Shown: one piece after another, positions 31,463-61,923 of the stretch
Numbering within the stretch: position 1 is the first letter of the stretch
How the letters are laid out: each line of letters opens with the position of its first letter
From: Parcubacteria group bacterium
GTDB lineage: Bacteria; Patescibacteriota; Minisyncoccia; UBA6257; UBA11618
Direction of reading: 5' to 3'
Assembly (NCBI GenBank): GCA_943357895.1
Contig: CALRGO010000002.1
Location: 25,926 to 89,925, forward strand
DNA: 64,000 nt
Translations under genes and position numbers: made by a program
Notes under the pieces: generated by a model
Told to the model about the DNA's origin: nothing
The model's database searches: none
The model's input: the letters and a program-made list of their open reading frames with translations, nothing else

Positions 31463-31477
31463 GTCTGTATCATCGTA

Positions 31478-47382: not shown

Positions 47383-48411
47383 ATGCCTCTTCCGTTATGG
47401 AAAGCCGCTCCGCGCGCTTTCTTGCATTTCAATATTTTAAAAAGCTTTCCAAAGACTGTAGTCCAGTCATTAGGATTATATTTGCGCCAATCGCTAGAAA
47501 AATTTTCTTCTAAGCCCCTATTACTAGTTTTTTCGATTTCTCCGGATCATCTCCGTTTATGGTATTTTTTAGCAAAAAAACGGATTCGGATGGAAGATTG
47601 GCGCTTAGTTATCGTCGATAGTGCTGGAACTTTCGACCCGAAGCTCTTTCCGGATGCCGAGGTTTACCGTTTTTTAAATATTTATCATGGAAGAAAGATT
47701 GATTTTTTTCTGCGCCACCTTTCGTCGGAAGAAATTTTCATTTGCGACGACGATAAATATCTTGAGCGTGCTATTGACTCCGAACTTCGTCTTTTGAAGA
47801 ATCTAGACGTCGCTGCGGTTTCTTTGTGCTCGCGTAATTCTTTTTCGTTCGTGATCGGTGGCGTGCATCATAAGCCGATGGGCTCTTATGCGCTTTTATT
47901 TAAAAAAAGCGCGATCATCGAAAACAACCTTTTTTTCCAGTCTCCTCGGTATGCTGTATCCACCTACAAGGAATTTCCCGTAGGTGTTAAGCATCAGTTC
48001 GGGTATGATACTGCCGATTATGCTAACGAAAAACTGCTTCTTACTGGGTTTGAGATACCTTGCGCGGATGGTGCTGTTACGGGATTTGATGGCTTAAGTA
48101 CTTCATTTGTGTTTCTTTCTTCGTATTCGAAACGGGATGTTACGGAGATGCTTCTCGGTGCTCGGCATTATAGCGGCGGATCTGTAAACGGGGCCGTGAT
48201 GCGGAGTATATATTGCCGTACACAATTTGAAGAGGTTTTTAAGGCGGTTTTTAATGAAAATCCTATTTTTATGAGCGGTTATTCAGGGACTGAAGTGCGC
48301 GCTATTATTCAGGCCAATCTTTTTCTTGATCCGCTTCAAAAAAAGGATATTTTAGGATACTGTGACGCTATGGACAATGTGCGGGAAAAACTTATAAGGC
48401 AAGCAATATGA
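47383..48411 (+). CDS. hypothetical protein, possible GT-A-like glycosyltransferase
   Basis: Start 3 nt after upstream stop; possible DxD-like CDDD motif; no confident family. Confidence 0.35.
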   Translation: MPLPLWKAAPRAFLHFNILKSFPKTVVQSLGLYLRQSLEKFSSKPLLLVFSISPDHLRLWYFLAKKRIRMEDWRLVIVDSAGTFDPKLFPDAEVYRFLNIYHGRKIDFFLRHLSSEEIFICDDDKYLERAIDSELRLLKNLDVAAVSLCSRNSFSFVIGGVHHKPMGSYALLFKKSAIIENNLFFQSPRYAVSTYKEFPVGVKHQFGYDTADYANEKLLLTGFEIPCADGAVTGFDGLSTSFVFLSSYSKRDVTEMLLGARHYSGGSVNGAVMRSIYCRTQFEEVFKAVFNENPIFMSGYSGTEVRAIIQANLFLDPLQKKDILGYCDAMDNVREKLIRQAI

Positions 48412-48992
48412 GTTTTTTTGCCCGTGTTGCTCGAAAGATAGCTTCTTTTTATGCGGGCCTCTCTTTTAGATGTGATCTGCCCGTCTTCCATAGGAATTTC
48501 TTACCCTCTCTGCTGCCTTCATTCGGATTAGACGGTGTGGGGGCTGAGATTGGGGTTGCTCGGGGAGATTTTTCGGCAATTATTTTAAGAAACAGTAATC
48601 TTAGGTTGCTGTATTCGGTCGATTCATGGAGTGGTGATCGGTTTAAAAATTATCCTATTGCGATGAATAAGCTTTCTTGTTTTAAGGGTCGTTCGGTTAT
48701 TATGAAAAATGCTTCTGAGGATGCGTCTGCGAGCATTAAAGATGCTAGTCTTGATTTTATATATATTGATGCTTCTCATGATTATGAGGCTGTTTTACAG
48801 GATCTTGGGCTATGGTGGCCGAAGCTTAAAAAGGGAGGTATTTTTTCCGGACATGATTATATCGACGGTTCTTTCCCCGAAGGAAATTTTGGGGTTAAAA
48901 AGGCAGTTGATATATTTTTGAGTGATAAGTCCCATGGGAGGCTTTTTATTGTTCCGTGGAAATGGCCTACATGGTATTGCGTTAAAAAATAA
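48408..48992 (+). CDS. class I SAM-dependent O-methyltransferase (TylF/MycF-like)
   Basis: LDFIYIDASHDYEAVLQDL and GGIFSGHDY resemble macrocin O-methyltransferase-like sugar methyltransferases. Confidence 0.65.
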   Translation: MSFFARVARKIASFYAGLSFRCDLPVFHRNFLPSLLPSFGLDGVGAEIGVARGDFSAIILRNSNLRLLYSVDSWSGDRFKNYPIAMNKLSCFKGRSVIMKNASEDASASIKDASLDFIYIDASHDYEAVLQDLGLWWPKLKKGGIFSGHDYIDGSFPEGNFGVKKAVDIFLSDKSHGRLFIVPWKWPTWYCVKK

Positions 48993-49003
48993 GAAAATAG
49001 GTT

Positions 49004-50137
49004 GTGCATCCCCTTCTTATCGCCTATTCAATCGACCCCGTAAGCGGCTATGGAACAATGGCTGATTGCCATTGCAGAGCTCTTCTTGAAAAGAATATTC
49101 CTTTTACGCTTTTACTTCCGCGTTCCGCGAAGCGCGTTGCCGTGCCTTATGCATCGAACATACGGTATATTTTACCCCTATTACCTTTTACATTTAATTC
49201 TTTTTATGATGTGGCTCGCCTCCCGTTATTATATGCCCCCATCTCCCTTGCGGGGATCTCTCCGACTATTGTTCATTCGCTCGTTGATTTTCCGTACGCC
49301 TCCCTTGGTTTTCGTATAGCGCGGAAACGCCACCTGCCTTTTATTTTTTCAGCTGTCGGCACGTACTCCGTTGCGCCATTCGGGAACTGGATCGATAAGC
49401 GTCTTTTTATGCCGGCATATATGAATGCGACCCGCATCCTCGCCATTAGTTATTTTACTGCTCAGGCGATGCAGGAGGCCGCCGGCTATTCGAGGTCGGT
49501 GGATGTACTCTATTCACCCGCTGCGGAGCCCAAGCGTCCTGTCTCCCCGCTACCTACCTTTCCGGAATTACCCGTAAGCGCTCGGGTAATTCTTTCGATA
49601 GGCCCCTTAAAAGAGCGGAAGGGTATGGATATTCTTATTAGGGCTTTGCCGCATGTCTTAAAAGTCGTTCCAGCGGCGCATATCGTCATAGTTGCCGCAT
49701 ATGGTGATGTACAAAAATACGATGCGCTTGCGCGCTCATGCGGCGTTTCTGGCCATCTTAGCATTATGGATGCTGTTACGACTGAAAAACTTTTTTTTCT
49801 TTTTGAAAGATCAGAGGTTTTTGCTATGACTCCCCGTCGTATAGGAGATGAATTCGAGGGGTATGGCCTTGTTTATACGGAGGCGGGGTGGCATGCAAAG
49901 CCTGTTATTGCTTCCCGTTCTGGTGGGGCGCCTGAGGCCGTTATCGACGGTAAAACGGGAATTCTTGTTCCTGAAAATGACGAGCTAAAAACAGCGAGGG
50001 CTCTTATCGCCGTTTTGCAGGACGGCGCGTATGCGGCGCGCTTAGGTAGAGGTGGATATGATCTCGCATTAAGTCGCTGTATTGCGGCATATGCGGGCGC
50101 CGTAGTCCGTTTATACGGATCGCAAGGTAATAAATAG
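49004..50137 (+). CDS. glycosyltransferase family 4
   Basis: EGYGLVYTEAGWHAKPVIASRSGG motif. Confidence 0.8.
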   Translation: MHPLLIAYSIDPVSGYGTMADCHCRALLEKNIPFTLLLPRSAKRVAVPYASNIRYILPLLPFTFNSFYDVARLPLLYAPISLAGISPTIVHSLVDFPYASLGFRIARKRHLPFIFSAVGTYSVAPFGNWIDKRLFMPAYMNATRILAISYFTAQAMQEAAGYSRSVDVLYSPAAEPKRPVSPLPTFPELPVSARVILSIGPLKERKGMDILIRALPHVLKVVPAAHIVIVAAYGDVQKYDALARSCGVSGHLSIMDAVTTEKLFFLFERSEVFAMTPRRIGDEFEGYGLVYTEAGWHAKPVIASRSGGAPEAVIDGKTGILVPENDELKTARALIAVLQDGAYAARLGRGGYDLALSRCIAAYAGAVVRLYGSQGNK

Positions 50138-51301
50138 AGCGACGATTGCATTCGAAAATCGAGCGAGAACTCTTGCGAGTATCGCCCCCAAAACCCCGAA
50201 GGGTGGAATAAGGATACATGAAAAAATAAGCATTGCTCCTGCCGCGCTAGTATTAAGAGTAATAGTCTCTTTTTTGCGGAGTAGCGCCCCAAGGGTCGAT
50301 TCGGCAAGATGCGCAGGAAACGCAAGGAACGAGAGGGCGAGTAGCTGGGAGTATCTGAGTGCCTCCGGATATGCGGGGAATGCGAGGGGGAAAAATAAGG
50401 GGGCGGATGCGGCATATGCTATGAAAACGATGGCGGCAATTCCCGTCGCTTGAGCCGTTCTTGCGATGAGCATCCTTTTGATATGGGTGGTATTCATTGC
50501 TGCAACGTGTGCGACGGAGAGGGTTCCTGCGTTTTTAACGAATCCTTTTATCGTTTCAGGTATCATGCGCGCTATAGCGTAGATAGCAACATCTTTCGGC
50601 CCGAAGAAGGCATTAAGAAGTAGGATGTCGGCATAATTCGTCGCTTGTAAGAGTGCCTCAGTCCAGCTAGTTTTTTTTGCGAATTCAAGATATTCCTTTT
50701 TCCCCGGAATTGTATGTGTGGCGGGGTATTGCGCTAGGTAATACGTATACAGGCCGGCAGTCAGGGCGTTTGTGGAGAAAAAAGCGAAAACGAGGGCGGC
50801 GGCGCTATGGGGGAGAAAATATGCCGAAGCGATGAGTGCTGTGGCAAGCGCGCCTGATATAGTGAGGGATCGTGTCGCATAGCGCTGTATATCCCCCGTC
50901 CCCACATAATAGCTTTCGTAGAGACCGCTTATGGCGTAGGGGGTAAAAAATAATCCTCCAATAGCGGCGGCAATACTCAAGCCGTAAGCCCCTGTTAGTG
51001 CATAATACAATGAAAAAAATGCTAATACTGCGATTCCTTGCCATGATTTTTTAATAACCATAGCAGTCCCCTCCGCAAAGGCTCCGTGAATTCTTCGTGC
51101 TCCGGCGGCAATCAGGACTCCCGACATTTTAGGGTATACCGTAAGAAGAGCTATGCCCATAAGCGTACTTATTATCTGGTATTCACCCATGACCGTTTTC
51201 GAGACGAGTCGCGCTACTAAGGTATAAGCGGTAAAAAGCAGAATACTGCCTCCGGCTGACGCTAATCCCATATATGCGTTATTGCGTATGAAGCTTCGCA
51301 T
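50111..51301 (-). CDS. oligo/polysaccharide flippase (MOP superfamily, Wzx-like)
   Basis: ~12 TM helices, polysaccharide biosynthesis protein architecture; 396 aa. Confidence 0.6.
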   Translation of the reverse strand: MRSFIRNNAYMGLASAGGSILLFTAYTLVARLVSKTVMGEYQIISTLMGIALLTVYPKMSGVLIAAGARRIHGAFAEGTAMVIKKSWQGIAVLAFFSLYYALTGAYGLSIAAAIGGLFFTPYAISGLYESYYVGTGDIQRYATRSLTISGALATALIASAYFLPHSAAALVFAFFSTNALTAGLYTYYLAQYPATHTIPGKKEYLEFAKKTSWTEALLQATNYADILLLNAFFGPKDVAIYAIARMIPETIKGFVKNAGTLSVAHVAAMNTTHIKRMLIARTAQATGIAAIVFIAYAASAPLFFPLAFPAYPEALRYSQLLALSFLAFPAHLAESTLGALLRKKETITLNTSAAGAMLIFSCILIPPFGVLGAILARVLARFSNAIVALFITLRSV

Positions 51302-52562
51302 TTGTTTTTTTAAGTACAGCTATGCTGCCATACCCGCAATTTCTCAGGAAGGGGTAGTCCCTGAAACGCTCCATTTTTTTAGCTAAGGGAATTAATCGCG
51401 GAAAATACGGCAGGCATAGGCTGGAGGCTTGGAATGCGGTTATTTCGAATCCCCCCCTGCGTAGTTCTTTACGCATGACATGTGGGTAACGCCATATATG
51501 CGGCAATGCCTTGTTGCCACGATACCCCTCGTCAACCCCTGCGCTGCCGAGGTTTGCTAGTATCCTGCCGCAGCCTACGAACCATGCAAAGGGCGACCAG
51601 CGTGAGATTTCCCAAAAAACATCTTCGCCTAAAATAACAGCGGCGCAGGGATTAAGACATGTTGGTAACGCTATTACCGCTTTGCTTTTCGTGACGCGCC
51701 GCACTTCAGCGAGCCCTTTTTCAAAGCTCGGGAGATGTTCTAATATATGGGAGCTTATTACCCAGTCAAATGAGCTATCCTCGAAAGGGAGATTTTCAGC
51801 GTCCGCCATCACGAACCGTATTTTATTTTCCATGCCGGCTTCTACTGCGTGGCGCTTTGCTTTCGCTATATTGTACTCCGAGATGTCGCACGCGGTTATC
51901 ATGACGCCTTTCTTCGCGAGCATAATTGCAAGCGTTCCGTCCCCGCATCCGTTGTCTAATGCTGCTGTTCCGGCAGGTACGTACTCGACGATCGATGTAT
52001 ATTCCGTTTCATGGACGTACCGCCATAGGGGAAATGCGATACTTTTTTTACTTTCTATGCTTGATTCCTCCCGCTCTTTATAGAGTTCTTTTATAGTTTC
52101 ATTTGATGTATTTTCAGGTTCCGTATTTTTTTCGCCGTAGTCATGAGCGTTAATAAAAATTCCTAAGCATAGGATCGCGGCGATAATGCCGCTTATGGCT
52201 ATAGGCGGAAGACCACTACCCTGCGCTCCTAATTCGGCTACAGTGTGGGCGTTATAGTACCAAAAAGAGCCCCATAAGATGGATGCCCCTGCAATACTGA
52301 AAGAAAAAAGATCTCGTATGTTGATGCGGGTGCGCGCACGAATCAATTTCGGCGCCTTTTTTAATTTCGGTGTAAGAAGGCTTGCTCCTTCCAGTAGGGC
52401 GCTTATACCGACAATCCAGTATATTATCTGCCGCGCCACACCCATGCGTTCCAAAAATCCATTCGAAACGCCATCGATAGCGATGAGAGCTAGTCCCATG
52501 AAAACATACCAAGCAAAAACCAAGCTATTTATTTCAAGAATAAGAAGTAGTATCTTTTTCAT
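51279..52562 (-). CDS. membrane-anchored class I SAM-dependent methyltransferase
   Basis: Two N-terminal TM helices; motif I LDNGCGDGTLA, DWVISSHILEHLP. Confidence 0.7.
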   Translation of the reverse strand: MKKILLLILEINSLVFAWYVFMGLALIAIDGVSNGFLERMGVARQIIYWIVGISALLEGASLLTPKLKKAPKLIRARTRINIRDLFSFSIAGASILWGSFWYYNAHTVAELGAQGSGLPPIAISGIIAAILCLGIFINAHDYGEKNTEPENTSNETIKELYKEREESSIESKKSIAFPLWRYVHETEYTSIVEYVPAGTAALDNGCGDGTLAIMLAKKGVMITACDISEYNIAKAKRHAVEAGMENKIRFVMADAENLPFEDSSFDWVISSHILEHLPSFEKGLAEVRRVTKSKAVIALPTCLNPCAAVILGEDVFWEISRWSPFAWFVGCGRILANLGSAGVDEGYRGNKALPHIWRYPHVMRKELRRGGFEITAFQASSLCLPYFPRLIPLAKKMERFRDYPFLRNCGYGSIAVLKKTNAKLHTQ

Positions 52563-52563
52563 T

Positions 52564-54390
52564 TTATTCCTTTATATAAGCTGAAAAATCCTTCAGTTCT
52601 TTTTTGATAGGAAATATATTAAGCATCTTCATTTCAATTTCATTGCTTTCCGTTTCTTTTGAGACGAGGATCATCGCGGGATTGGCGGTTAAAAAATCAA
52701 CTTCCCGCGGCAGAATGGAATTGAAGGCGGGGCAGCGTATTTCCGTGCAATATTCTTCCAGAACCATCGTTTCGCGGGGGGCAAACGCCCATGCCATATA
52801 CGTTGAATGGGCTTTTTTCGGGATTATCGTTATTGGGCGCAATACGGTCGCATGTAGTGATTTTGCTAATTCGAGTAATTCTTTAATTTGGTCGTATTGC
52901 TCTCTTTTTCGCTTTCCGCCGTCATGACCCTCTATCATGTCATTAAAAACCATTTTTTGTTGGTTGGATGCAGCAAGTACGAATACCGGCAAAAGTCCTA
53001 TCGTGAGAACGGCAATAAATCCCTTACCGATGCGCGGCGAGGCGATCAATGCAATGCCGTCCGCCCCCCACTCGGCAATCAGTAGTGTGAGAATGACGGC
53101 GCTGGGATAGAGAAAAAGATAATAACGGAAAGACTGCCAGCTCGCGTAAAACGCGTGGTATGCCAAAAGCGGCGTTATAAGGAGTGCCCATGGCACGGCA
53201 AATCCCGCGGCTATTTCCGTACGCTTGTTTTTTAAAAAAGCGAGTAAGGTGCCGATTACGCCACCCCAAAGGAGAATCTCCTGTTCTCTCCCTAAATACG
53301 GCTGGGAGAAAAGCGTTAGATGCTCGGCATATTGGTCATAATACGAAATGAGCGTGGGGTTGAAATAATAGAGCACGTGGGACGCATAAAGCGCATAAAG
53401 GATGGCAACGATAGCTGTGGGAAAAAAGAATATTTTTTTAAAGAAGTGCCATGGCGCAGGCTTCGTCTTTTCCTTTTTAAATATAGTGGTAACTATCTGC
53501 ACGCCTTCGCTAATAATCGTCCCCATGCCGATAATAAGGGCGAATACGGCGAGCGTTCCTAGGTGTAGGGCATAAAAAACCGCAAGAAAGACCCAGAGAA
53601 TACGGAGATCTTTTTCATTTTTAAAAAGTATAAAACCGGCAATAAAAAGAAAAATAGCGATTCCTTGCGGAGCTATATCCCCTGAAATTAGATAATAGTT
53701 TATCCAATGAAGGGAAAAAAGCATGGGTACTGCCATAAGTCCTAGCATTTTTCGCGAAAGGGATATACGGGTGAGTTCGGCGATCGCAATGGCTATAAGT
53801 GTGTATATGCCATAAGTCCAAAGAATCATAAAATTTCCGTAGACATCCAGATCTTTAGGAAAAAATGCGACATAGGGAGAAAGTAGCAGAAAAAAAATTG
53901 GCCGGTGGATTTGACTTGTGAATATCTTTACGGTGACGAACGTGGCGTCATGTAGGGATGCTTCGGCATATGCCAGCCAATAATATTGGTCGCTCGCTGC
54001 ATTGAAATAGGGCGCGGTAATTTCCTTAAAATGTACATGTAGTATGGCGAGCATCATGAGGATGGTCGCACCGGAGGCAATGTCGTATGCGCCTATACGA
54101 ATGGCGGGCATGGGCCCCTTTTTTTGCCGGAGCATTACGGCAAGCAGGGCAATAACCGTACCACTTACTACGAGAATCCGCACCGCGGGTGTAATGGGAA
54201 GTGATGCCGCGCAACTTACGAGAAAGGAAATGATTAATTGAAAAAAAAGACCCCCTATTGCGGCATATATAAAGAAAAGAAGGGTGTTTATTTCTTTGCG
54301 TTCCGTAAGGAGTGGGACAGCAAGTAATCCCGGCACGGCGCAGGTTAGGATGAACGGCGGTAGAAATTGAGTTGCGATAAAATGCCACAT
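52564..54390 (-). CDS. polytopic membrane protein (GT-C/polymerase-like) with C-terminal soluble domain
   Basis: About 14 predicted TM helices over 470 aa then ~130 aa hydrophilic tail; 608 aa. Confidence 0.5.
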   Translation of the reverse strand: MWHFIATQFLPPFILTCAVPGLLAVPLLTERKEINTLLFFIYAAIGGLFFQLIISFLVSCAASLPITPAVRILVVSGTVIALLAVMLRQKKGPMPAIRIGAYDIASGATILMMLAILHVHFKEITAPYFNAASDQYYWLAYAEASLHDATFVTVKIFTSQIHRPIFFLLLSPYVAFFPKDLDVYGNFMILWTYGIYTLIAIAIAELTRISLSRKMLGLMAVPMLFSLHWINYYLISGDIAPQGIAIFLFIAGFILFKNEKDLRILWVFLAVFYALHLGTLAVFALIIGMGTIISEGVQIVTTIFKKEKTKPAPWHFFKKIFFFPTAIVAILYALYASHVLYYFNPTLISYYDQYAEHLTLFSQPYLGREQEILLWGGVIGTLLAFLKNKRTEIAAGFAVPWALLITPLLAYHAFYASWQSFRYYLFLYPSAVILTLLIAEWGADGIALIASPRIGKGFIAVLTIGLLPVFVLAASNQQKMVFNDMIEGHDGGKRKREQYDQIKELLELAKSLHATVLRPITIIPKKAHSTYMAWAFAPRETMVLEEYCTEIRCPAFNSILPREVDFLTANPAMILVSKETESNEIEMKMLNIFPIKKELKDFSAYIKE

Positions 54391-54394
54391 ACCC

Positions 54395-55009
54395 TTACGG
54401 GATGGGCTTCCCGACTACTTCCAGTTCGTATGCACCAATCCAGTCTTTTTCAGCCTGCGCCTTGAGGCGTAGGTGGGAGGTTTGCATGCGGTCGTTTATG
54501 ACTGTTTTCACGTCTGCTGGAGAAGGTCCGCTCGCGAGTACTTTCCATGCGGATCCGTTATCCGAAGATTCAAGGGACCATGACCGTATGTAATTTGTAT
54601 TTACTCCGTAATCCCCCCAGCGTATGATAATTTGTTTGATCTCGTAGCTGTCGAGGAGAGTCACGGTATAATCTATTGTATTGCTTCCGGGTGCCGCGAG
54701 CGTTTCCTCTGATCCATCGATTAGCTTTTCTGCGCCTCTTCCTTGGCCGATACTGAGGTCTGAGCGTTCGGGGGTATTGCTTATAACGGACATTTCGTTC
54801 GGCGCGAGGCGTCGGAACGTCGTCATTTCCGTTCCTATGTCCGATTTTCCGCAAATGAAGCTTGCGGGAGAAAGATCAAATTTAAATCCGGTGCCAAGAC
54901 ATGCTCGGACGATAAGAGCCGCCATTCCGACGGAAAGGCATACAGATATGATTATGCCGACTGTTAGTGTCCGTAAAAATCCTTTTTCCATTGCTTTGAT
55001 TGTAGTCAC
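54395..55009 (-). CDS. membrane-anchored discoidin (F5/8 type C)-like carbohydrate-binding protein
   Basis: N-terminal TM; LIDGSEETLAAPG...IRWGD...WSLESSDNGSAWKVL pattern resembles discoidin/CBM32 domains. Confidence 0.5.
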   Translation of the reverse strand: MTTIKAMEKGFLRTLTVGIIISVCLSVGMAALIVRACLGTGFKFDLSPASFICGKSDIGTEMTTFRRLAPNEMSVISNTPERSDLSIGQGRGAEKLIDGSEETLAAPGSNTIDYTVTLLDSYEIKQIIIRWGDYGVNTNYIRSWSLESSDNGSAWKVLASGPSPADVKTVINDRMQTSHLRLKAQAEKDWIGAYELEVVGKPIP

Positions 55010-55090: not shown

Positions 55091-56590
55091 ATGCGCTTTA
55101 TTTCTTTTATTCATTCTCTGCACGTCGTTATCGCCTGCATTCTCGGTGTCGGGATTTATTGGCTCGCCGCGCCGCTTGGTTGGATAGGGGCTCTAATAGC
55201 CGTTCTGTCTATGATGGTGACGGTCGGCATTGCGGATCGATTGTCGAGTGCGGGCGTGCGTACCTTATTCCTCATATGCGTTCTTTTCCATATAGCGGGG
55301 TTTACGGTCATCGCCTATCCGTCGGCGCAGGATGCGTATAACCGCTACGGTGATTTCCATAGCGGCATTACCGATGCGAATTACGGGAATATTCTTTTGC
55401 AGCCGTGGCACGCCGCTCCCGTTCTCAGGCTTTTTTTTGCGGAAGGTAAAATAGTCAAAGGTGTTATCAATTTTATCCGGCCTCCTGCAGGAGAAAGCGA
55501 AAGCATCGATGCTGCCGTCGAAGCTATTATTGCCATCGGAATCGTAAGCAGGATCGTGGCATTTGTCCTCTTTTATTTTTTCGTACAATCAGCCGGCCTC
55601 CGAGCGCGCGCCGTTGCCGCGGCACTTCTTATTTTTACTTTCCAATATACGAATATTGCATTGACCCAGAGCATGAAGTTTGTCGCCGGCCTGCCATTTT
55701 TTATGTTCTGGTTAGTAAGTTTTTCGGAGTACGAAAGAACGGGACATAGGCGATGGCTCGCGGCGCACGTCATGGCTCTTCCCCTCCTGCTTATTTCAGA
55801 ACAATGGATTATCTTCTTCGTTGCGGCGCTGTATCTCCTCTATCCTTTTTTCAGGCGGGGCGCCGGCATTCCGTTACGCGTCTTCGATGTTTTCGGCACC
55901 GCCCTAGTCGCGTTCGCTTCGACCACCCTGTATTTTTTGGAATGGGGACGTATAACAAGCAATCACATCCCGCTTTTGCCTCTTGTGCCGTCAGCATTCC
56001 GTTCCGCTTATTTGCATGAATATCCCGCACTCCTCCTCATTTTTTCAATCGCTTGCGGAATAGGTTTGTGTATATATAAAAAAACATTCGGATTTTCCGG
56101 TAAAAAATTTCTGTCGCTCGGCATTGTTCCCTACGCGATCTTTATGCAATCGCTTATTTTCCTTAACCCCGCGATGTTCCTTCAAAAAAATTTCTTATTA
56201 TTTTTTTTACCGTATTGGCTTCTTGTTTCATGTTCTCTCGGTATGATTATTCGCAATGCCTTCGTTGTGCGCAAGATCGACGCCGTTGCGGTTTTAGCTC
56301 TTGTTGCATGGACTATCGGATCTTTGCCTCAGATATTCCTTATGTTGGGTGCTTCCATGCCGACGTCGCCCGTTCTCGACGTAATTATCCTGCCGTTGCT
56401 CGTTGGGGTTGCTAGTAGAGACGCACATAAGGCATTTCTCCTATTTTTTACTCTTGTCGTTCTTGTTGGATTCCTTTCTGTATATAAATTACTGGTATAT
56501 ACGGACGGATGGGCGCGCGCGGGCGTGTTACTTCCCGTAATCCTCGTTCCGATTGCAATCGCCATTACCCGAAAATACCGTTATGCGTAA
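55091..56590 (+). CDS. polytopic membrane protein (GT-C/polymerase-like)
   Basis: About 13 TM helices; 499 aa; no soluble catalytic domain recognisable. Confidence 0.5.
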   Translation: MRFISFIHSLHVVIACILGVGIYWLAAPLGWIGALIAVLSMMVTVGIADRLSSAGVRTLFLICVLFHIAGFTVIAYPSAQDAYNRYGDFHSGITDANYGNILLQPWHAAPVLRLFFAEGKIVKGVINFIRPPAGESESIDAAVEAIIAIGIVSRIVAFVLFYFFVQSAGLRARAVAAALLIFTFQYTNIALTQSMKFVAGLPFFMFWLVSFSEYERTGHRRWLAAHVMALPLLLISEQWIIFFVAALYLLYPFFRRGAGIPLRVFDVFGTALVAFASTTLYFLEWGRITSNHIPLLPLVPSAFRSAYLHEYPALLLIFSIACGIGLCIYKKTFGFSGKKFLSLGIVPYAIFMQSLIFLNPAMFLQKNFLLFFLPYWLLVSCSLGMIIRNAFVVRKIDAVAVLALVAWTIGSLPQIFLMLGASMPTSPVLDVIILPLLVGVASRDAHKAFLLFFTLVVLVGFLSVYKLLVYTDGWARAGVLLPVILVPIAIAITRKYRYA

Positions 56591-57083
56591 TATTTTCACT
56601 TACAGTTGCGCTTTTTTTGCCTGTGTTTCTATTTTTTCTTTCGCGGGTATTTTGCATATCGAAGAAAGCGTTTTACTTTCGGGGGCGGACTTAGTGCCCG
56701 AAACGATAACGGTGCGGAGTGTGTACGGCGATGTTATTCTCAGGAGAACCGCCTATGCCCCCTTTTCTCTTTGGTTTGCGCGGGGTACGTATGCAGGCGC
56801 CGTTGCTAGTGGGCAGTCCCTTGAAAACTCTTTGGTTATACGGGGTGATGAAGTGGCTTCGTTCTCGTCCGCTTATCCCGAGTGGCGGGTATTCGCCGTC
56901 ATGAAGGCGCAGGATGTTGCCGGCAATGAACATTCATGTAATCTCCAGAGATTGTTCGGGGATACAACCTTACGGAGCTATAATTGCGCTCTCGATAAGG
57001 AAAAAATAACGTCCCTTTCTATCATCTTCGTCAAGCCTACTTCGTTGCGGGAAAAAATAACGATACTTGGCGAATCATTGTGA
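56583..57083 (+). CDS. secreted hypothetical protein
   Basis: Start at Met overlapping upstream stop by 8 nt; signal peptide MRNIFTYSCAFFACVSIFSFAG. Confidence 0.4.
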   Translation: MRNIFTYSCAFFACVSIFSFAGILHIEESVLLSGADLVPETITVRSVYGDVILRRTAYAPFSLWFARGTYAGAVASGQSLENSLVIRGDEVASFSSAYPEWRVFAVMKAQDVAGNEHSCNLQRLFGDTTLRSYNCALDKEKITSLSIIFVKPTSLREKITILGESL

Positions 57084-59372
57084 TTAGCGCAAAGACTTTT
57101 CGTACCCGTTCCAATCGATGCGGAAAATACGCGCTTTCGATTGGGAATTAGTTTCGTAATTGGAATATATTTCTTTTAGGTAGGGCGGTATTGTTTCGCC
57201 GGTATAAATCAATAAATATTTATTAGGCACGAACGGTAGCGGATTGAATATCTGGTCTTCGAGGAGAATATGGGTCACTTTGCGGGTACGGAGCACCGGC
57301 ATGGCTTCGGTAATCGAATCGAATTTTCCCGGATAGGTAAGACTGAGGCCGGATTGCGGGGCTATGATATCCTGCAATCCCCTTCCCCCGATTTTAGCGT
57401 CGGGTAAAAGCATCATTATATCGATACCATTTCCCGTAGCGAGTACGCCCTTTACGTTCGTCGATGCCCATAAAGCGACCTGCAGTCTATCTCTATTCAT
57501 GCGGGAAATATCCTTGACGAAAAGCCGTGCCACAAATATGAATGTCGAGAGCGAAACGCAGAGCAAGATTATCTGAGAGGCGGCGAACATGCCGAAGAAT
57601 AGGCGCTCGTCCCGTACGTCGTGCGGCGCCGTAGCGCGGAGCCCTGCCACCGCAACTAGTATGCCTAAGGGGGCGATTGGGAAAACATGCCGAAGGAGAT
57701 AATACAGATGGAAAATAGGTATAAGGCTCATAATCCATATCCCTATGGCGGCCCATACGGGAAACCATACGGGATCGCGCCATGTGCGAACAGCACCCTG
57801 CAGAAAGAAAAAAAGCTGGGGGAGAATACTATACGCGAAATAGAGCAGGACGAGGCATATCCCCGTCGTTATGAAGCGGTTGAATATTTCCGCGGCGGTA
57901 TGCGTCTTAAGATAATGCGGCAGGGTTACGGAAGGCGCCGCCCCCCATACGTCCACGTAGCGTTCTACAAAATATTTACTATTCTCACCGTAATTAAATG
58001 CTGATCCGAATTCCGCCTGCCGCATCAAGAGCATCGGCGAGGCGACGGCAAAAAAAATCGCAATCATGGCCGCCGACCTAAGCAGGAGTCCGCCTAGCGG
58101 CATTTTTTTCCACGCCCAGCATGATACGAGCACTATAGGTAGGACTATTATTCCGTTTGGGCGCACCCAATACGTAAGTCCCGCCACCCCGCTTGCGGCA
58201 TAGGCGAATGCTGGATTATCCCGTGCCTTATAAACGAAGCAAATTGCCGTAAGAAAAAGGAGGGTAAAAAGAGGCTCGGTTAAGATAAAGAGGTTATCCG
58301 ATATAATAAGAGGAAAAGAAAATATAAAGGCTATAAGGGCGGCGTCAATGGTTTTTTTTGATGCGGTGAGCCTGAAGGCCAGCCATCCTATGGGGAATAC
58401 GGCTGCCGCGCCGGTTACCGCAGTAATAAGTATTCCAACGAGCAAGTTTTCAAATATGGATGTAGCTCCCCATGCGTAGAGGAAGGGCGCCATGAATGCC
58501 GATAATCCTATTGCATGCGTTCGTATGGGCGACCAGTCGCCGCGCACTATTTCGAGCGCCTTAAGAATATATATATACGAATCATATTTTTGTATGGGAA
58601 ACATGACGATGTACGATACGTACATTTCAAGGCCGATGCGTACTGCGGCGGCAATAAGGAAAAAACAGAAAATACGTAAAAGGGGTATTTTTTTTATCCG
58701 CTCTTCATAGAGGATATTTTCAATGACTGATTGTACTGCTCGGCGTGCGAGCATGATTCTATTGCGGCACCAGTCAAAAAAACTTATTGTATTTGTTTTC
58801 CGAGCAGCGGTTATCGTATCAATAATACGGATGTCTTTAAAAAATCGCGATCGGTATACAGATTTTTTAACCACGGCGACAGGGCCGAGCCATGCGAGTA
58901 TTTCAGGCGAGGAGCACGTGTCGTGAAAAGCTATCGTCGCGCCTAGGGCGAGCTTCGGTGACCATAGCTCGAAATCACGCGTAACCATTTCGAGCGCATG
59001 ATCCCCATCGATAAAAAGCAGCTCTATTGGTAAATTGAATGTTTCAGCCGCTTTTTCGGAGGTCATGACGAGCGGCCGCACTACGGAAGAAAGTCCGGCG
59101 CGCTCCATATTATTTTGAAATATATCAAATGTTTTGAAATCGCCCTGTTCTGGTAGTCCGTTGTGGGGATCAACGGCATATACAGGAACGCCGTTACCAG
59201 CCTGCGAGCCTGCGCCTAAAAAAACCGCTGATTTCCCCTGCCATGAGCCGATTTCAACGATAACTCCTTTTCCCGTGCACCGCTTGGCACAGTCATATAA
59301 AAATGCGCCCTCTTTTGCCGTGAGCCAGCCGTGAACCGCCTCCGTATTTTTTTTAGCTTCTTTCAGCTCCAT
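57084..59372 (-). CDS. fusion protein: N-terminal class I SAM-dependent methyltransferase + C-terminal polytopic GT-C-like membrane domain
   Basis: N-terminal ~230 aa with GVIVEIGSWQGKSAVFL and LLFIDGDHALE (CmcI/TylF-like MTase); followed by ~500 aa with >12 TM helices; 762 aa. Confidence 0.6.
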   Translation of the reverse strand: MELKEAKKNTEAVHGWLTAKEGAFLYDCAKRCTGKGVIVEIGSWQGKSAVFLGAGSQAGNGVPVYAVDPHNGLPEQGDFKTFDIFQNNMERAGLSSVVRPLVMTSEKAAETFNLPIELLFIDGDHALEMVTRDFELWSPKLALGATIAFHDTCSSPEILAWLGPVAVVKKSVYRSRFFKDIRIIDTITAARKTNTISFFDWCRNRIMLARRAVQSVIENILYEERIKKIPLLRIFCFFLIAAAVRIGLEMYVSYIVMFPIQKYDSYIYILKALEIVRGDWSPIRTHAIGLSAFMAPFLYAWGATSIFENLLVGILITAVTGAAAVFPIGWLAFRLTASKKTIDAALIAFIFSFPLIISDNLFILTEPLFTLLFLTAICFVYKARDNPAFAYAASGVAGLTYWVRPNGIIVLPIVLVSCWAWKKMPLGGLLLRSAAMIAIFFAVASPMLLMRQAEFGSAFNYGENSKYFVERYVDVWGAAPSVTLPHYLKTHTAAEIFNRFITTGICLVLLYFAYSILPQLFFFLQGAVRTWRDPVWFPVWAAIGIWIMSLIPIFHLYYLLRHVFPIAPLGILVAVAGLRATAPHDVRDERLFFGMFAASQIILLCVSLSTFIFVARLFVKDISRMNRDRLQVALWASTNVKGVLATGNGIDIMMLLPDAKIGGRGLQDIIAPQSGLSLTYPGKFDSITEAMPVLRTRKVTHILLEDQIFNPLPFVPNKYLLIYTGETIPPYLKEIYSNYETNSQSKARIFRIDWNGYEKSLR

Positions 59373-59399: not shown

Positions 59400-60488
59400 T
59401 TAGTAATTGCCATTATTGTACGTACGGAATCGCGCGCTTGACCATGAATGAATTGGTTTTTCAAGCATATGATACGAAATAAGGGCGACGGGAACAAGGA
59501 ATAAGGGCATTGAAAGCGGCGAAGAATCCCTATAGAAGGCGGGATTGTTCGTAAAAGGTTGCTGCCATAGATACAGGCTATAGGAAGCCAGTCCTATGTT
59601 TCGCATATAATGGAAAGCCCGCGACGCGAGAAATCGGGGGATGTGGCGCAACGCCATAATAAGGCGCAGGATCGCGAACGACGAGAGTAGAGCATATGCG
59701 AATTGTTCGGGGGCATGGCTCGTTTTTGCAGATACGAGAAATAATATACCCATAAAAAGAGCGCTTACTCCAGTAAGGGGCGCGCTCGGGATATTCACAT
59801 AGTGGCGTACGGTAGAACTCGCGGCATAGAGCGCTCCTCCGGCAATGGATGCGAATGCCCATCCGTTGTCTATCCAGCCGTGCATGAAAAATATCTTAAA
59901 TGCTGAAAATACCGAAAAAAGAACACACAGGGCGGCAATGGTAGGCGTTCGCCGAAGCGCCGGAAGTAGCAGTATAAATAATGGCCAAACGGCATAAAAC
60001 TGTTCTTCTACCGAAAGGCTCCAGAGATGGAGCAGATTCCATGTGCAGGGAGTCGCCGAAGCATTTGCGAGGAATGCAATGCAAGAAATGTTCGAACGGT
60101 CGATCGTTGCCGTCCATCCGAGCGCGGCGAAAAGCCCCATGCCGAGAAGATAGCCGGCATAGGCGGGAATAATTCTGAAAAACCGCCGGAGATAGAATTT
60201 TGCAATAGAAATACTTCCTGTCCGATCAAGCTCGCTGATAAGTATTTTCGTTATGAGGAATCCACTTATTACAAGGAATATTTTTACGCCCACGTCTCCA
60301 GCATGCCAACTGACTGTCAGGAAGGCGCGGATAAAATTTTTTTCGTAGGCGGTGTTTCCGAGCGAGACGAAAAACGAATGAAAGCGGAAAAATACCAGAT
60401 GACTTTCTATGACGAGTATAATGCTTATCCCCCGCCAAAAGTCGAGTACGGGATCACGGCCGTCCTTATACCGTTCCGGTTGTTCCAT
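59400..60488 (-). CDS. acyltransferase family 3 (OafA/YrhL-like) membrane O-acyltransferase
   Basis: DFWRGISIILVIESHL N-terminal motif, 10 TM helices. Confidence 0.75.
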   Translation of the reverse strand: MEQPERYKDGRDPVLDFWRGISIILVIESHLVFFRFHSFFVSLGNTAYEKNFIRAFLTVSWHAGDVGVKIFLVISGFLITKILISELDRTGSISIAKFYLRRFFRIIPAYAGYLLGMGLFAALGWTATIDRSNISCIAFLANASATPCTWNLLHLWSLSVEEQFYAVWPLFILLLPALRRTPTIAALCVLFSVFSAFKIFFMHGWIDNGWAFASIAGGALYAASSTVRHYVNIPSAPLTGVSALFMGILFLVSAKTSHAPEQFAYALLSSFAILRLIMALRHIPRFLASRAFHYMRNIGLASYSLYLWQQPFTNNPAFYRDSSPLSMPLFLVPVALISYHMLEKPIHSWSSARFRTYNNGNY

Positions 60489-61923
60489 GGCTCCCCTTTT
60501 CGAAGTATTCCGCTTCGCTGCCGACGGCCTCGATGTCTTCGCGTATGCCTGTTATTACGCTCCGCGCTGCCATAATTCCCATTTCGAGCGAGTGATCTTG
60601 GTTATTGTAACGGAATCTGCCGGGGCGGCCGATGTAATACAGGTTTTCGAAGCGGTCTAAATAGGCTTTTACTGAATCTACGTATGTTTTGTATTCGGTG
60701 TCGTATATCGGGTACACCTTTTTTTGGCGCATGAGGTAGCTTTGCCGTACTTCGCTCCGTTTGCAGAAGCCGAGGGGTTCGAGGTGCTTCATCGTCATTT
60801 CGAGCAATTCTTCCTTCGTCGCGTTCCAGACAGCGTCCCCCTCGAAACAGAAAAATTCCAAAAAGAGCGACGTTTTTCCATGCGGGCTCATTTTTTGGCT
60901 GAAATTATTCATCTCCGTAATCCTACCGAAGGGAATATGTTTTTCGGGGAAATAGATCCATTGGTCGCGCGTAATGCGTTCCTTATCGAGGGTGATGAAG
61001 AGATATACTTGGTCGCGATAGCGCATTTTTTCCGCTGCCGCCGTAATTGCCGCGGGCGGGGCAGGGTCGAGCAGTTTTAAAAATTCCTTCGGCGGGATGC
61101 TCTCAATAAGCGTCTTCGGGGTTATTTCTTTCAGCGCTCCTTTTACGGATACCGTAAGTCCCGTTATGCGGTTGTTATGGTGGCGAATGCGCACGGGATA
61201 ACTTTCGAGTTCCACGGGATTGCCGGCGTCCGCGATCTTTTTCGCGATTGTTTCATAAATAAGCCCCGTACCATATTCGGGGTAATAGAAGCTGTCTACG
61301 AGAGTACGGAGCCCTTTCGTACGGAAAAGGCCGAGCGTCCGCTCCGCTGCGGCTTTCACGAGGAAGCCAACGGACAGTCCCTTAATGCGCTGCGTTGCCC
61401 AGTCTGTATGTATGGTGTTCGCTTTTACACCCCAGATCTTTTCCGTGTAATTGATCATATTAAACTCGGCGAGCGTCCTGCCGAAGTGCGCCACGACATG
61501 GTCTTCGAAATGGCGAATTGGTTTTTTGAAAAGCCCGTAACGGAGCTGGGCGGCAGCGTAGTCCGCTACCATGCGCGTGGCCTTTCGTGGCCCGATATTG
61601 GCGAGTGCTTGGGCGGGGTTGATTGGGTAGTCGTAGAATTTGCCCGCGATGAACTGGCGCGTTTGGCGCTTTACTTCTATCCAGTTTTCTTTGATGAGCC
61701 CTTCGATGAAGCCGTAAAGGTATGGGTTTTTGGAAAAGAAGCGGTGCGGGCCGTTATCCGTGCGGAACGTGAGTCCGTCTGGCTCCGTAAACAAATAGGT
61801 CTTTGCGAGGCCGCCCACGCGGTCGGATTTCTCATAGAGCGTAAAATTCTTTCCGGCGTGCGTAAGTTCCATTGCTGCGGCGAGCCCCGCGGGGCCGGCG
61901 CCCAGAATACACGTCTCTTTCAT
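60466..61923 (-). CDS. FAD-dependent UDP-galactopyranose mutase-like enzyme
   Basis: ILGAGPAGLAAA Rossmann motif, EKSDRVGG, GPHRFF, NYTEKIWGV (cf. UGM YTEKQWG) and C-terminal GRPGRFRYNNQDHSLEMG (cf. UGM GRLAEYKYYDMHQVI); 485 aa. Confidence 0.55.
   Translation of the reverse strand: MKETCILGAGPAGLAAAMELTHAGKNFTLYEKSDRVGGLAKTYLFTEPDGLTFRTDNGPHRFFSKNPYLYGFIEGLIKENWIEVKRQTRQFIAGKFYDYPINPAQALANIGPRKATRMVADYAAAQLRYGLFKKPIRHFEDHVVAHFGRTLAEFNMINYTEKIWGVKANTIHTDWATQRIKGLSVGFLVKAAAERTLGLFRTKGLRTLVDSFYYPEYGTGLIYETIAKKIADAGNPVELESYPVRIRHHNNRITGLTVSVKGALKEITPKTLIESIPPKEFLKLLDPAPPAAITAAAEKMRYRDQVYLFITLDKERITRDQWIYFPEKHIPFGRITEMNNFSQKMSPHGKTSLFLEFFCFEGDAVWNATKEELLEMTMKHLEPLGFCKRSEVRQSYLMRQKKVYPIYDTEYKTYVDSVKAYLDRFENLYYIGRPGRFRYNNQDHSLEMGIMAARSVITGIREDIEAVGSEAEYFEKGSHGTTGTV

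What the first reader, a model, noticed from the sequence alone, without database searches (positions are those of the whole stretch)
57084..59372. Methyltransferase fused to a GT-C-like polytopic membrane domain
This is a single 762-aa ORF. The N-terminal ~230 aa form a class I SAM MTase with a CmcI/TylF-like signature (GVIVEIGSWQGKS, LLFIDGDHALE). This is followed, without a stop, by ~500 aa with more than 12 TM helices resembling GT-C glycosyltransferases or polymerases. Such a fusion would couple sugar O-methylation to membrane glycosyl transfer or polymerisation. It lies next to the acyltransferase-3 and UGM-like genes.
Basis: partly seen in the sequence, partly recalled or inferred. Interest (0 to 1): 0.6.

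Follow-up and report, generated by a model that had tools for sequence, protein, structure and literature searches.

The report
Methyltransferase fused to membrane glycosyltransferase
One real gene in an uncultured candidate-phyla (Patescibacteria) bacterium joins a cytoplasmic sugar O-methyltransferase to an outward-facing, lipid-donor (GT-C) glycosyltransferase; its relatives encode the two as neighbouring genes, so they probably decorate the same surface glycan, and the fusion is rare but built from known parts.

Summary
Window 57084-59372 (minus strand) is one 762-aa ORF. The identical protein lies on 12 independently assembled contigs. An 82%-identical relative keeps the fusion, with dN/dS about 0.06-0.17 in every part, so it is not a frameshift artefact.

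- **N-terminal domain (aa 1-195):** a Methyltransf_24 class I SAM O-methyltransferase. Its closest solved relative is the mycobacterial sugar 1-O-methyltransferase MeT1, not CmcI or TylF.
- **C-terminal domain (aa 621-762):** a soluble domain predicted to lie outside the cell.

The positive-inside pattern puts the methyltransferase in the cytoplasm and the GT-C active site outside.

In relatives the two enzymes are separate adjacent genes, in either order, or the methyltransferase is absent. A UDP-galactopyranose-mutase-like flavoprotein is the near-constant partner.

Most likely the methyltransferase methylates a lipid-linked sugar before it is flipped, and the GT-C domain transfers a sugar outside. 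Substrates are unknown. I rate it a new variant of a known kind, of moderate interest.

The parts
57084..59372 (-). Whole fusion gene, 762 aa plus stop codon
   Evidence: ORF list and translation. The identical protein lies on 12 contigs. An 82%-identical homologue is also fused.
58788..59372 (-). Cytoplasmic class I SAM-dependent O-methyltransferase domain (aa 1-195), Methyltransf_24, MeT1-like
   Evidence: Pfam PF13578 scores 81.8 bits against a cut-off of 26.3, E=8e-23. The PDB sequence hit is 6g7d, E=7e-18. The AF2 model has pLDDT 93.7. Foldseek best hit is MeT1 (6g80/6g7d), E about 2e-17, TM 0.76-0.80. Invariant residues among 46 homologues are E40, G42, G46, D68, D122, H125, H150 and D151.
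58686..58787 (-). Basic helical linker (aa 196-229) running from the methyltransferase core into TM1. It contains the fusion junction.
   Evidence: AF2 predicts helix 198-224 in the domain model and 195-222 in the full model. The equivalent C-terminal helix exists in free-standing homologues. dN/dS is 0.165.
58688..58695 (-). A8 homopolymer run at the fusion junction (codons for IKKI). The fused relative has A7 at the same place.
   Evidence: Sequence read. Junction DNA of both fused genes is shown.
57513..58685 (-). GT-C fold membrane domain (aa 230-620), 11 predicted TM helices. Conserved residues predicted to face outward: D264, Y268, K271, E274, E366, R404, R451, G456, R561.
58581..58583 (-). 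Codon of D264, the candidate catalytic Asp in the first extracytoplasmic loop (motif Q-K-Y-D-S-Y-I-Y)
   Evidence: Invariant in 15 close homologues. It is D in 82 of 86 family members, with E or N in the rest.
57087..57512 (-). C-terminal soluble alpha/beta domain (aa 621-762), predicted extracytoplasmic, function unknown
59400..60488 (-). Upstream neighbour: Acyl_transf_3 membrane O-acyltransferase, an alternative or additional modifier gene in this slot
   Evidence: Pfam PF01757, E=7e-23. It occupies the same slot in L005, L007 and L013.
60466..61923 (-). UDP-galactopyranose-mutase-like flavoprotein, the near-constant partner of this GT-C family
   Evidence: Best PDB hit is T. cruzi UGM 4dsg, E=2e-26 over aa 5-459, with UGM motifs kept. 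NCBIfam NF005548 scores 430.7 bits against a cut-off of 389. It lies next to the GT-C gene in 7 of the 11 distinct related loci examined, besides the window.
54395..55009 (-). Membrane-anchored F5/8 type C (discoidin, galactose-binding-like) protein, conserved downstream of the GT-C gene
   Evidence: Pfam PF00754, E=2.5e-9, and one N-terminal TM helix. Conserved in L001, L003, L005 and L007.
52564..54390 (-). Conserved 608-aa polytopic membrane protein of unknown family in the same operon-like block
   Evidence: 11 hydropathy peaks and no Pfam or NCBIfam hit. Conserved in L001, L003 and L007. hhalign finds no relation to the GT-C family.
50111..52562 (-). Methyltransf_11 protein (51279-52562) and a Wzx-like flippase (50111-51301) that complete the conserved block
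   Evidence: Pfam. The homologous genes in relatives carry Polysacc_synt. Local phmmer table.

Best explanation
The gene encodes a bifunctional enzyme that spans the membrane and decorates a cell-surface glycan or glycoprotein of a Patescibacteria (Harrisonbacteria-like) cell.

Shown by computation:
- The fusion is real and has been kept by selection.
- The N-terminal 195 aa are a MeT1-like, probably metal-dependent, SAM O-methyltransferase.
- A basic helix leads straight into helix 1 of an 11-helix GT-C fold domain.
- The conserved acidic and basic residues (D264, E366, R404, R451, R561) and the C-terminal globular domain are predicted to lie outside.
- The methyltransferase is predicted to lie in the cytoplasm, where SAM is available.

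Inferred:
- The GT-C domain takes a sugar from a flipped polyprenyl-phosphate-sugar donor and transfers it to an extracytoplasmic acceptor.
- The methyltransferase works at the inner membrane face on a lipid-linked intermediate of the same pathway. Most likely this is the GT-C domain's own polyprenyl-phosphate-sugar donor before it is flipped. That is the only route by which the residue added outside could carry an O-methyl group. On its own I rate this sub-claim at about 0.35-0.4.
- Because a UDP-galactopyranose-mutase-like enzyme is the family's near-constant partner, the sugar may be a furanose such as galactofuranose.
- The fusion arose from the gene order 'methyltransferase, then GT-C' seen in relatives, by loss of the stop codon and the short spacer. 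It tethers the methyltransferase to the membrane beside its partner.
For: - **Real fusion:** (12 contigs; fused homologue; dN/dS 0.06-0.17 in all four parts).
- **Methyltransferase:** (MeT1 TM 0.76-0.80). MeT1 is a sugar 1-O-methyltransferase (PMC9883506).
- **Conserved Asp in the first outer loop, and conserved Arg residues:**
- **Topology:** six K/R-rich loops all fall on one side, giving N-in and C-out with 11 helices. In other family members the same domain follows a GtrA domain or a Wzx domain. From general knowledge, both have an even number of helices, which fits an N-in start.
- **Use of flipped lipid-linked substrates:** the GtrA and Wzx fusions are fusions to flippase families.
- **Functional link of the two enzymes (Rosetta-stone pattern):** a free-standing Methyltransf_24 gene lies directly upstream of the GT-C gene in L001, L002 and L012, and directly downstream in L003.
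- **UGM-like partner:**
- **Candidate donor synthases in the window:** an ArnC/DPMS/GtrB-like GT2 and a DPPR-synthase-like UbiA protein.
Against: - No substrate, donor or acceptor is identified. No activity was measured.
- Topology comes from hydropathy and the positive-inside rule only. The model coordinates could not be inspected, and the stretch aa 493-530 could be counted as one helix or two.
- The query itself does not reach any Pfam GT-C model.
- Most family members work without this methyltransferase, so methylation is an optional decoration and the fusion need not imply channelling.
- The closest characterised methyltransferase, MeT1, acts on a free soluble oligosaccharide, not on a lipid-linked one.
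- No polyprenyl-phosphate-sugar synthase or small flippase lies next to the gene. The candidate synthases are 19-25 kb away, each next to another polytopic membrane protein that may be its own partner.
- In my recollection, UGM products (UDP-furanoses) are normally used by cytoplasmic transferases.
Confidence: 0.5

Rival explanations
1. The architecture is the same, but the methyltransferase does not touch the GT-C donor. It methylates the undecaprenyl-diphosphate-linked repeat unit or backbone (the future acceptor), or a chain terminus, on the cytoplasmic face. The GT-C domain independently adds a side-chain sugar outside. The fusion only anchors the methyltransferase to the membrane and balances expression.
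For: - The cluster carries many cytoplasmic GT4 and GT2 enzymes, a Wzx-like flippase and three further methyltransferases, typical of a Wzx-dependent repeat unit that is heavily modified before export.
- Methyltransf_24 domains also occur fused to cytoplasmic GT1 and sulfotransferase modules (P0014-P0018).
- Free-standing relatives carry their own hydrophobic or basic C-terminal tail, which could be a membrane anchor.
- From my own knowledge, methylation of a dolichol-phosphate-linked oligosaccharide in the cytoplasm has a precedent in archaeal AglP.
Against: The Methyltransf_24 gene is always directly next to the GT-C gene, in either order, or fused to it. It is never next to the cytoplasmic glycosyltransferases of the cluster. 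That points to a dependence on the GT-C step in particular.
Confidence: 0.3
2. The GT-C-like domain is not a side-chain glycosyltransferase. It would be a protein O-glycosyltransferase (PMT-like) acting on S-layer or pilus proteins, a polymerase or ligase, or a non-catalytic scaffold like the GT-C-fold subunit PIGU.
For: - Weak to moderate Pfam PMT_2 and PMT hits in family members.
Against: - A scaffold role is unlikely given the near-invariant D264, E366, R451 and R561.
- The protein sequence contains no WWDYG-type oligosaccharyltransferase motif.
- Polymerases and ligases that use diphosphate-linked donors belong to other folds, according to the classification in PMC10920833 as listed. I did not read that paper in depth.
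- A protein acceptor is not excluded. It is compatible with the main explanation, which leaves the acceptor open.
Confidence: 0.15
3. The fusion is an artefact, or a non-functional accident such as a recent frameshift at the A8 run that joined two genes. In that case one half would be decaying or the protein would be misassembled.
For: An A8 homopolymer sits exactly at the junction. In most relatives the two genes are separate.
Against: - The identical 762-aa product lies on 12 contigs from ENA, Logan and NCBI assemblies of different samples.
- A second lineage, 82% identical with dS above 0.8, keeps the same in-frame junction although its junction DNA differs (A7).
- dN/dS is far below 1 in every part, including the linker.
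- All methyltransferase and GT-C signature residues are intact.
Confidence: 0.03

Closest known systems
ArnT and the PMT_2-type GT-C glycosyltransferases (GT-C-A class: ArnT, Pmt1/2/4, AglB/PglB/STT3)
   Different: The query itself matches no Pfam or NCBIfam GT-C model. Identity to solved structures is 9-14%. It has no WWDYG motif. It has 11 helices, where I recall 13 for ArnT. It carries a cytoplasmic methyltransferase at the N-terminus. I know of no such fusion in these families and found none in two literature searches.
Three-component extracytoplasmic glycosylation systems: GtrA/GtrB/GtrC-type, and the pentofuranose system of Citrobacter youngae (PPPRS + flippase + GT136 GT-C; PMC11127046)
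   Same: An outward-facing GT-C enzyme that would use a flipped polyprenyl-phosphate-monosaccharide. GT136 ORF12 also has 11 helices, a small helical domain after helix 1, a candidate catalytic Asp there and a C-terminal extracytoplasmic domain. One family member is fused to GtrA. The window encodes a GtrB/ArnC/DPMS-like GT2 and a PPPRS-like UbiA protein. Cytoplasmic tailoring of the lipid-linked donor before flipping has a precedent in the epimerases of that system.
   Different: The donor synthase and flippase are not adjacent to this gene. The conserved partner is a UGM-like flavoprotein instead. The tailoring enzyme would be a methyltransferase and is covalently fused to the GT-C enzyme. 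Sequence relatedness to GT136 was not tested.
MeT1, the methylmannose-polysaccharide 1-O-methyltransferase of Mycobacterium hassiacum (PDB 6G7D/6G80)
   Same: Same Pfam family (Methyltransf_24). It is the best sequence match (E=7e-18) and the best structure match (TM 0.76-0.80, 28% identity). The motifs VEIG..GKS, VD.H, FIDG.H and HD are shared. Hundreds of homologues of about 234 aa are named 'MMP 1-O-methyltransferase' by JGI.
   Different: MeT1 is a soluble protein that acts on the free reducing end of a cytoplasmic oligomannoside. A lipid-linked sugar has no free anomeric hydroxyl, so the position methylated here must differ. This domain is tethered to a membrane enzyme.

Membership tests
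GT-C fold glycosyltransferase superfamily | Polytopic membrane domain of about 7-13 helices | tested here: met
   11 helices from family-averaged hydropathy and AF2 secondary structure.
GT-C fold glycosyltransferase superfamily | Structural similarity to solved GT-C enzymes | tested here: met
GT-C fold glycosyltransferase superfamily | Helical extracytoplasmic loop after helix 1 carrying a conserved catalytic Asp or Glu | tested here: met
   Helices 264-276 and 289-301 follow TM1. D264 is D in 82 of 86 members, E in 3 and N in 1. Its catalytic role is not tested.
GT-C fold glycosyltransferase superfamily | Uses a lipid-phosphate-linked sugar donor on the extracytoplasmic face | not testable with these tools
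   Indirect evidence only. The conserved Arg residues are predicted outside. Family members are fused to GtrA and Wzx flippase domains.
Pfam PMT_2 (PF13231; ArnT/PMT-like GT-C) | Score above the gathering threshold (26.1 bits) | tested here: not met
   The query gives no hit at E<=1. More distant family members do pass: P0010 28.5, P0087 28.8, P0093 29.6, P0079 34.3, P0114 31.5 and P0042 32.1 bits. The family is therefore a divergent relative, not a recognised member.
Oligosaccharyltransferases (STT3/AglB/PglB) | WWDYG-type motif in the C-terminal extracytoplasmic domain | tested here: not met
Pfam Methyltransf_24 (PF13578), MeT1-like O-methyltransferases | Profile match above threshold, and a class I Rossmann methyltransferase fold | tested here: met
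   81.8 bits against a cut-off of 26.3. The AF2 model has pLDDT 93.7. The best structural match is MeT1, TM 0.76-0.80.
Pfam Methyltransf_24 (PF13578), MeT1-like O-methyltransferases | SAM-binding motif I (E-x-G-x-x-x-G) and conserved acidic and His residues of cation-dependent O-methyltransferases | tested here: met
   E40, G42, G46, D68, D122, H125, H150 and D151 are invariant in 46 homologues and align with MeT1. Binding of metal and SAM was not tested.
Pfam Methyltransf_24 (PF13578), MeT1-like O-methyltransferases | 1-O (anomeric) methylation of 3-O-methylmannosides | not testable with these tools
   The specificity is known only for MeT1 (PMC9883506). It is unlikely to apply to a lipid-linked substrate.
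   Neither family is reported at E<=1. The only PDB sequence hit at E<=1 is MeT1. SpnH, which I recall as TylF-type, is a second-tier structural match (TM 0.68-0.71, rank 15).
Three-component extracytoplasmic glycosylation system (Gtr-type or GT136 pentofuranose type) | Dedicated polyprenyl-phosphate-sugar synthase and flippase genes linked to the GT-C gene | tested here: inconclusive
   Candidate synthases exist in the window at 31478-32149 (ArnC/DPMS/GtrB-like) and 37757-38644 (DPPR-synthase-like). They lie 19-25 kb away, and the UbiA-type one was not found in the related loci. A Wzx-like gene is in the conserved block. One family member is fused to GtrA.
CAZy GT136 | Sequence similarity to Citrobacter youngae ORF12 | not tested
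Only the overall architecture could be compared, using the description in PMC11127046.

The most novel reading that the evidence does not exclude
This GT-C family and its near-constant UGM-like flavoprotein partner would define an undescribed route for adding hexofuranose (for example galactofuranose) outside the cell from a polyprenyl-phosphate-furanose donor. The route would occur in Patescibacteria and in some archaea (an Altiarchaeota MAG, plus one unnamed locus that looks archaeal). In the fused form, the donor itself would be O-methylated on the cytoplasmic face by the tethered methyltransferase before flipping. That would be the first case of a methylated lipid-linked monosaccharide donor made by an enzyme fused to the transferase that consumes it.
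Probability: 0.2. Interest if true: 0.7.

Novelty: new variant of a known kind. Interest (0 to 1): 0.45.

Why it matters
Gene fusions of this Rosetta-stone kind are among the few ways to assign partners in the glycan pathways of uncultured candidate-phyla bacteria. Here the fusion ties a widespread but poorly understood methyltransferase subfamily (Methyltransf_24, MeT1-like) to an unannotated GT-C family with at least 128 clusters at 50% identity.

It also raises a concrete, testable idea. A sugar that is attached outside the cell can only be methylated beforehand, on its lipid carrier.

If confirmed, this would:
- add 'methylation of the lipid-linked donor' to the known tailoring steps of three-component glycosylation systems, where epimerisation is already known;
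- give a handle on surface-glycan diversity in Patescibacteria, whose cell surface mediates their attachment to hosts.

Tried and rejected
- **Frameshift or assembly artefact:** rejected.
- **Transporter fold:** rejected. MFS, PepT and SLC hits appear only at Foldseek E>0.05 with probability <=0.15 and TM about 0.1.
- **Oligosaccharyltransferase:** rejected, because there is no WWDYG motif.
- **Profile search of PDB sequences with the membrane-domain alignment:** only noise (paraoxonase, E=0.075). The link to GT-C is visible by fold and by weak PMT_2 hits, not by direct sequence search.
- **NCBIfam on the fusion:** no family.
- **Is the conserved 608-aa neighbour a paralogous GT-C?** hhalign found no relation (probability 0.2%).
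- **Do the other long family members (about 670-1028 aa) carry the methyltransferase?** No. One has GtrA, one has Wzx, and the others have unassigned extensions.
- **The 120 best methyltransferase homologues:** all are free-standing, 181-307 aa.
- **Literature searches for a methyltransferase-GT-C fusion or for extracytoplasmic galactofuranosylation:** no precedent found.
- **AlphaFold-database fold library:** not available.
Full report
**Observation.** Window 57084..59372 holds one uninterrupted 762-aa ORF with an ATG start, on the minus strand. The plus-strand reading is full of stops. The neighbours are as described: an Acyl_transf_3 gene at 59400-60488(-) and a flavoprotein at 60466-61923(-) whose best solved relative is UDP-galactopyranose mutase.

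**The fusion is real.** The identical 762-aa protein is called on 12 contigs from ENA, Logan and NCBI assemblies of different samples. A second protein, P0002, comes from MAG GCA_030649015.1. It is 765 aa and 82% identical, and it has the same in-frame junction (IKKLPILRIF against IKKIPLLRIF) although the DNA there differs. Nei-Gojobori dN/dS between the two genes is 0.058 for the methyltransferase, 0.165 for the linker, 0.127 for the membrane domain and 0.055 for the C-terminal domain. dS is 0.8-2.7, so it is saturated and the ratios are rough, but dN is far below dS everywhere. An A8 run does lie exactly at the junction (58688-58695). It is A7 in the relative.

**N-terminal domain.**
- Pfam gives Methyltransf_24 (PF13578) for aa 39-152 at 81.8 bits against a 26.3-bit cut-off. 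It gives nothing for CmcI or TylF at E<=1.
- The only solved-structure sequence match is 6g7d (E=7e-18, aa 11-172).
- With 46 homologues the domain folds at pLDDT 93.7.
- Its best structural matches are 6g80 and 6g7d, Mycobacterium hassiacum MeT1 (E about 2e-17, TM 0.76-0.80, 28% identity).
- Next come cation-dependent catechol/CCoA-type O-methyltransferases and the sugar 4'-O-methyltransferase SpnH (TM 0.68-0.71).
- MeT1 is the 1-O-methyltransferase of methylmannose polysaccharide (PMC9883506).
- E40, G42, G46, D68, D122, H125, H150 and D151 are invariant among the homologues.
- The 120 closest homologues are all free-standing proteins of 181-307 aa.
- A long C-terminal helix (aa 198-224), rich in Arg and Lys, is shared with them. 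In the fusion it runs into helix 1 of the membrane domain.

**C-terminal part.** The query has no Pfam or NCBIfam hit beyond the methyltransferase. An AF2 model built on 15 sequences is confident from aa 230 to 762, with pLDDT mostly 85-95.
- The Foldseek top 34 PDB hits are all GT-C fold proteins. They include STT3 at E=8.5e-7 and ArnT (5f15 and 5ezm) at target-normalised TM 0.54-0.55, along with AglB, DPY19, ALG9, PglB, Emb, AftA/B and Pmt1/2.
- Transporters appear only at E>0.05 and probability <=0.15.

The second refutation criterion, a transporter rather than GT-C, therefore also fails.

An exhaustive profile search finds 128 clusters (at 50% identity) at E<=1e-30 and 403 at E<=1e-10. Several of the more distant members pass the Pfam PMT_2 threshold. 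The family is thus an unannotated, divergent branch of the ArnT/PMT-like GT-C enzymes.

Across 86 members (17-69% identical to the query), the conserved residues are:
- D264 (95% D, otherwise E or N), Y268, K271 and E274 in the loop after helix 1;
- E366 (always E or D);
- R404 (R, K or H), R451 (99%), G456 (100%) and R561 (98%).

**Topology.** Family-averaged hydropathy gives 11 helices: 231-255, 311-330, 341-355, 366-380, 391-403, 406-420, 431-447, 501-525, 536-555, 561-578 and 591-610. The six K/R-rich loops (226-235, 331-340, 381-390, 421-432, 526-535, 581-590) all fall on one side. This places the N-terminus and the methyltransferase in the cytoplasm. It places every conserved charged residue and the C-terminal alpha/beta domain (aa 621-762) outside.

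In other family members a GtrA domain or a Wzx domain precedes the GT-C domain. From general knowledge, both have an even number of helices, which agrees with an N-in start. The stretch 493-530 could be read as one helix or two.

**Relatives and context.** Named relatives are Candidatus Harrisonbacteria MAGs (Patescibacteria, Parcubacteria group). More distant ones come from other Patescibacteria, Saccharibacteria, a Desulfobacteraceae MAG and Altiarchaeota.

The close relatives share this gene order: gyrB-secE-nusG-rplK, then UGM-like flavoprotein, modifier gene(s), GT-C, membrane-anchored F5/8 type C protein, a roughly 615-aa membrane protein, Methyltransf_11, and Wzx.

The modifier slot varies:

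| Locus | Modifier slot |
|---|---|
| L001, L002, L012 | free-standing 256-aa Methyltransf_24 gene 5 nt upstream of the GT-C gene |
| L003 | 241-aa Methyltransf_24 gene directly downstream of the GT-C gene |
| L005, L006, L013, L007 | Acyl_transf_3 instead |
| Window | Acyl_transf_3 plus the fused methyltransferase |
| L004 | fused methyltransferase |

The UGM-like gene accompanies the GT-C gene in 7 of the 11 distinct related loci examined, besides the window. These include a Saccharibacteria locus and an unnamed locus that looks archaeal, since it carries an eRF1 gene. This protein keeps the UGM sequence motifs when aligned with T. cruzi UGM: NYxxKxW, WxYFPExxxPFxRxT and GRxGxxRYxxNQDHS.

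The fusion is therefore confined to one small clade. It most simply derives from the L001-type gene order by loss of the stop codon and spacer.

**Mechanism.**

Shown by computation: a conserved fusion of a MeT1-like O-methyltransferase, predicted to lie in the cytoplasm, to a GT-C domain predicted to face outward.

Inferred:
- The GT-C domain uses a flipped polyprenyl-phosphate-sugar. The GtrA and Wzx fusions in the family support the use of flipped lipid-linked substrates.
- The methyltransferase acts at the inner leaflet on a lipid-linked intermediate of the same pathway.
- SAM is cytoplasmic, and the methyltransferase gene is always next to, or fused with, the GT-C gene rather than the cytoplasmic glycosyltransferases. 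The most economical reading is therefore that it methylates the GT-C donor before flipping.
- This parallels the cytoplasmic epimerisation of undecaprenyl-phosphate-ribofuranose in the pentofuranose system of Kelly et al. (PMC11127046).
- The UGM-like partner and the galactose-binding-like F5/8C protein hint at a galactofuranose-type sugar. That is speculative.

The main rival is that the methyltransferase modifies the diphosphate-linked repeat unit (the acceptor) and the fusion is only a membrane anchor. A protein acceptor (PMT-like) is not excluded.

**Comparison and novelty.** Both parts belong to known kinds (Methyltransf_24, and the GT-C fold near ArnT/PMT_2). The system resembles three-component extracytoplasmic glycosylation. 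What differs:
- the covalent fusion of a cytoplasmic methyltransferase to a GT-C enzyme, for which two literature searches found no precedent;
- the unannotated GT-C family itself;
- its pairing with a UGM-like enzyme.

I rate it a new variant of a known kind, interest 0.45.

**Limits.** No substrate is identified. The topology is predicted, not measured. Membership of a CAZy family, including GT136, was not tested. The candidate donor synthases in the window (GT2 at 31478-32149, UbiA/DPPR-synthase-like at 37757-38644) are distant from this gene and may serve other polytopic proteins nearby.

Noticed in passing
window 60466-61923 (-); also L001, L003, L004, L005, L007, L008, L015: A eukaryote-type UDP-galactopyranose-mutase-like flavoprotein (best PDB hit 4dsg, E=2e-26; NCBIfam NF005548 above its cut-off; UGM motifs kept) lies beside this GT-C family in bacterial loci and in one locus that looks archaeal. 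It is a more constant partner than the methyltransferase. A mutase paired with a lipid-donor transferase is unexpected, because in my recollection UDP-furanoses are normally used in the cytoplasm.
   Followed up: partly
window 35673-40831: This looks like a separate pentofuranose-type three-component module. It has a UbiA-family protein (37757-38644) whose best hits are decaprenyl-phosphate phosphoribosyltransferase (PDB 8j8j, E=2e-30; NCBIfam E=1e-47, below its cut-off). Next come a Methyltransf_11 gene, an NAD-dependent epimerase (39348-40379) and a 151-aa ORF with a faint HAD-like hit (40376-40831). A divergently oriented 705-aa protein with 13 hydropathy peaks and no family lies at 35673-37790(-).
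   Followed up: partly
window 30029-32149: A 223-aa GT2 (31478-32149, +) has only polyprenyl-phosphate glycosyltransferases as PDB sequence hits (ArnC, DPMS, GtrB/sll0501). It sits next to a divergently oriented 540-aa protein with 9 hydropathy peaks and no family (30029-31651, -). This may be another lipid-donor synthase and membrane transferase pair.
   Followed up: partly
window 52564-54390 (-); L001 5388-7244; L003 4352-6199; L007 6548-8401: A conserved membrane protein of about 610 aa has about 11 hydropathy peaks plus a soluble C-terminal part with conserved Cys residues. It has no Pfam or NCBIfam hit and no profile relation to the GT-C family. It is always in the same block as the GT-C gene and the F5/8C gene.
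   Followed up: partly
window 54395-55009 (-): A small protein with one N-terminal helix and an F5/8 type C (discoidin, galactose-binding-like) domain is conserved directly downstream of the GT-C gene. It might act as a detached carbohydrate-binding module, like the CBM fused to GT136 ORF12.
   Followed up: no
window 55091-57083 (+): Two ORFs lie on the opposite strand between the fusion gene and the F5/8C gene: 499 aa with 12 hydropathy peaks, and 176 aa. The 176-aa ORF ends at 57083, directly abutting the stop codon of the fusion gene. The 499-aa ORF has homologues in L005/L013 on the same strand as the GT-C gene (local phmmer). A 176-aa ORF lies between those homologues, but its relatedness was not detected. 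This suggests an inversion in the window's lineage.
   Followed up: partly
window 58688-58695 (-): An A8 homopolymer lies exactly at the junction between the methyltransferase and GT-C parts (A7 in the fused relative L004). A one-base slip here would uncouple the two halves. Whether that happens, for example as phase variation, is unknown.
   Followed up: no
window 48408-48992 (+): A second, distantly related Methyltransf_24 gene (194 aa, Pfam E=1e-17) lies in the same glycan island. The window has at least six further methyltransferase genes among many GT4 genes and a polysaccharide deacetylase, which points to a heavily methylated glycan.
   Followed up: no
proteins P0044 and P0093: Other members of the GT-C family are fused at the N-terminus to a GtrA domain (P0044, 696 aa) or to a Wzx/Polysacc_synt flippase (P0093, 1028 aa). 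Several others carry an unassigned N-terminal extension of about 200 aa (P0067, P0068, P0097, P0100, P0107, P0108).
   Followed up: partly
L004 3203-6439; L017 6443-10445: The gyrB gene of the fused relative carries an intein (1078 aa, Intein_splicing). The Altiarchaeota locus L017 has two tandem paralogues of the GT-C gene.
   Followed up: no
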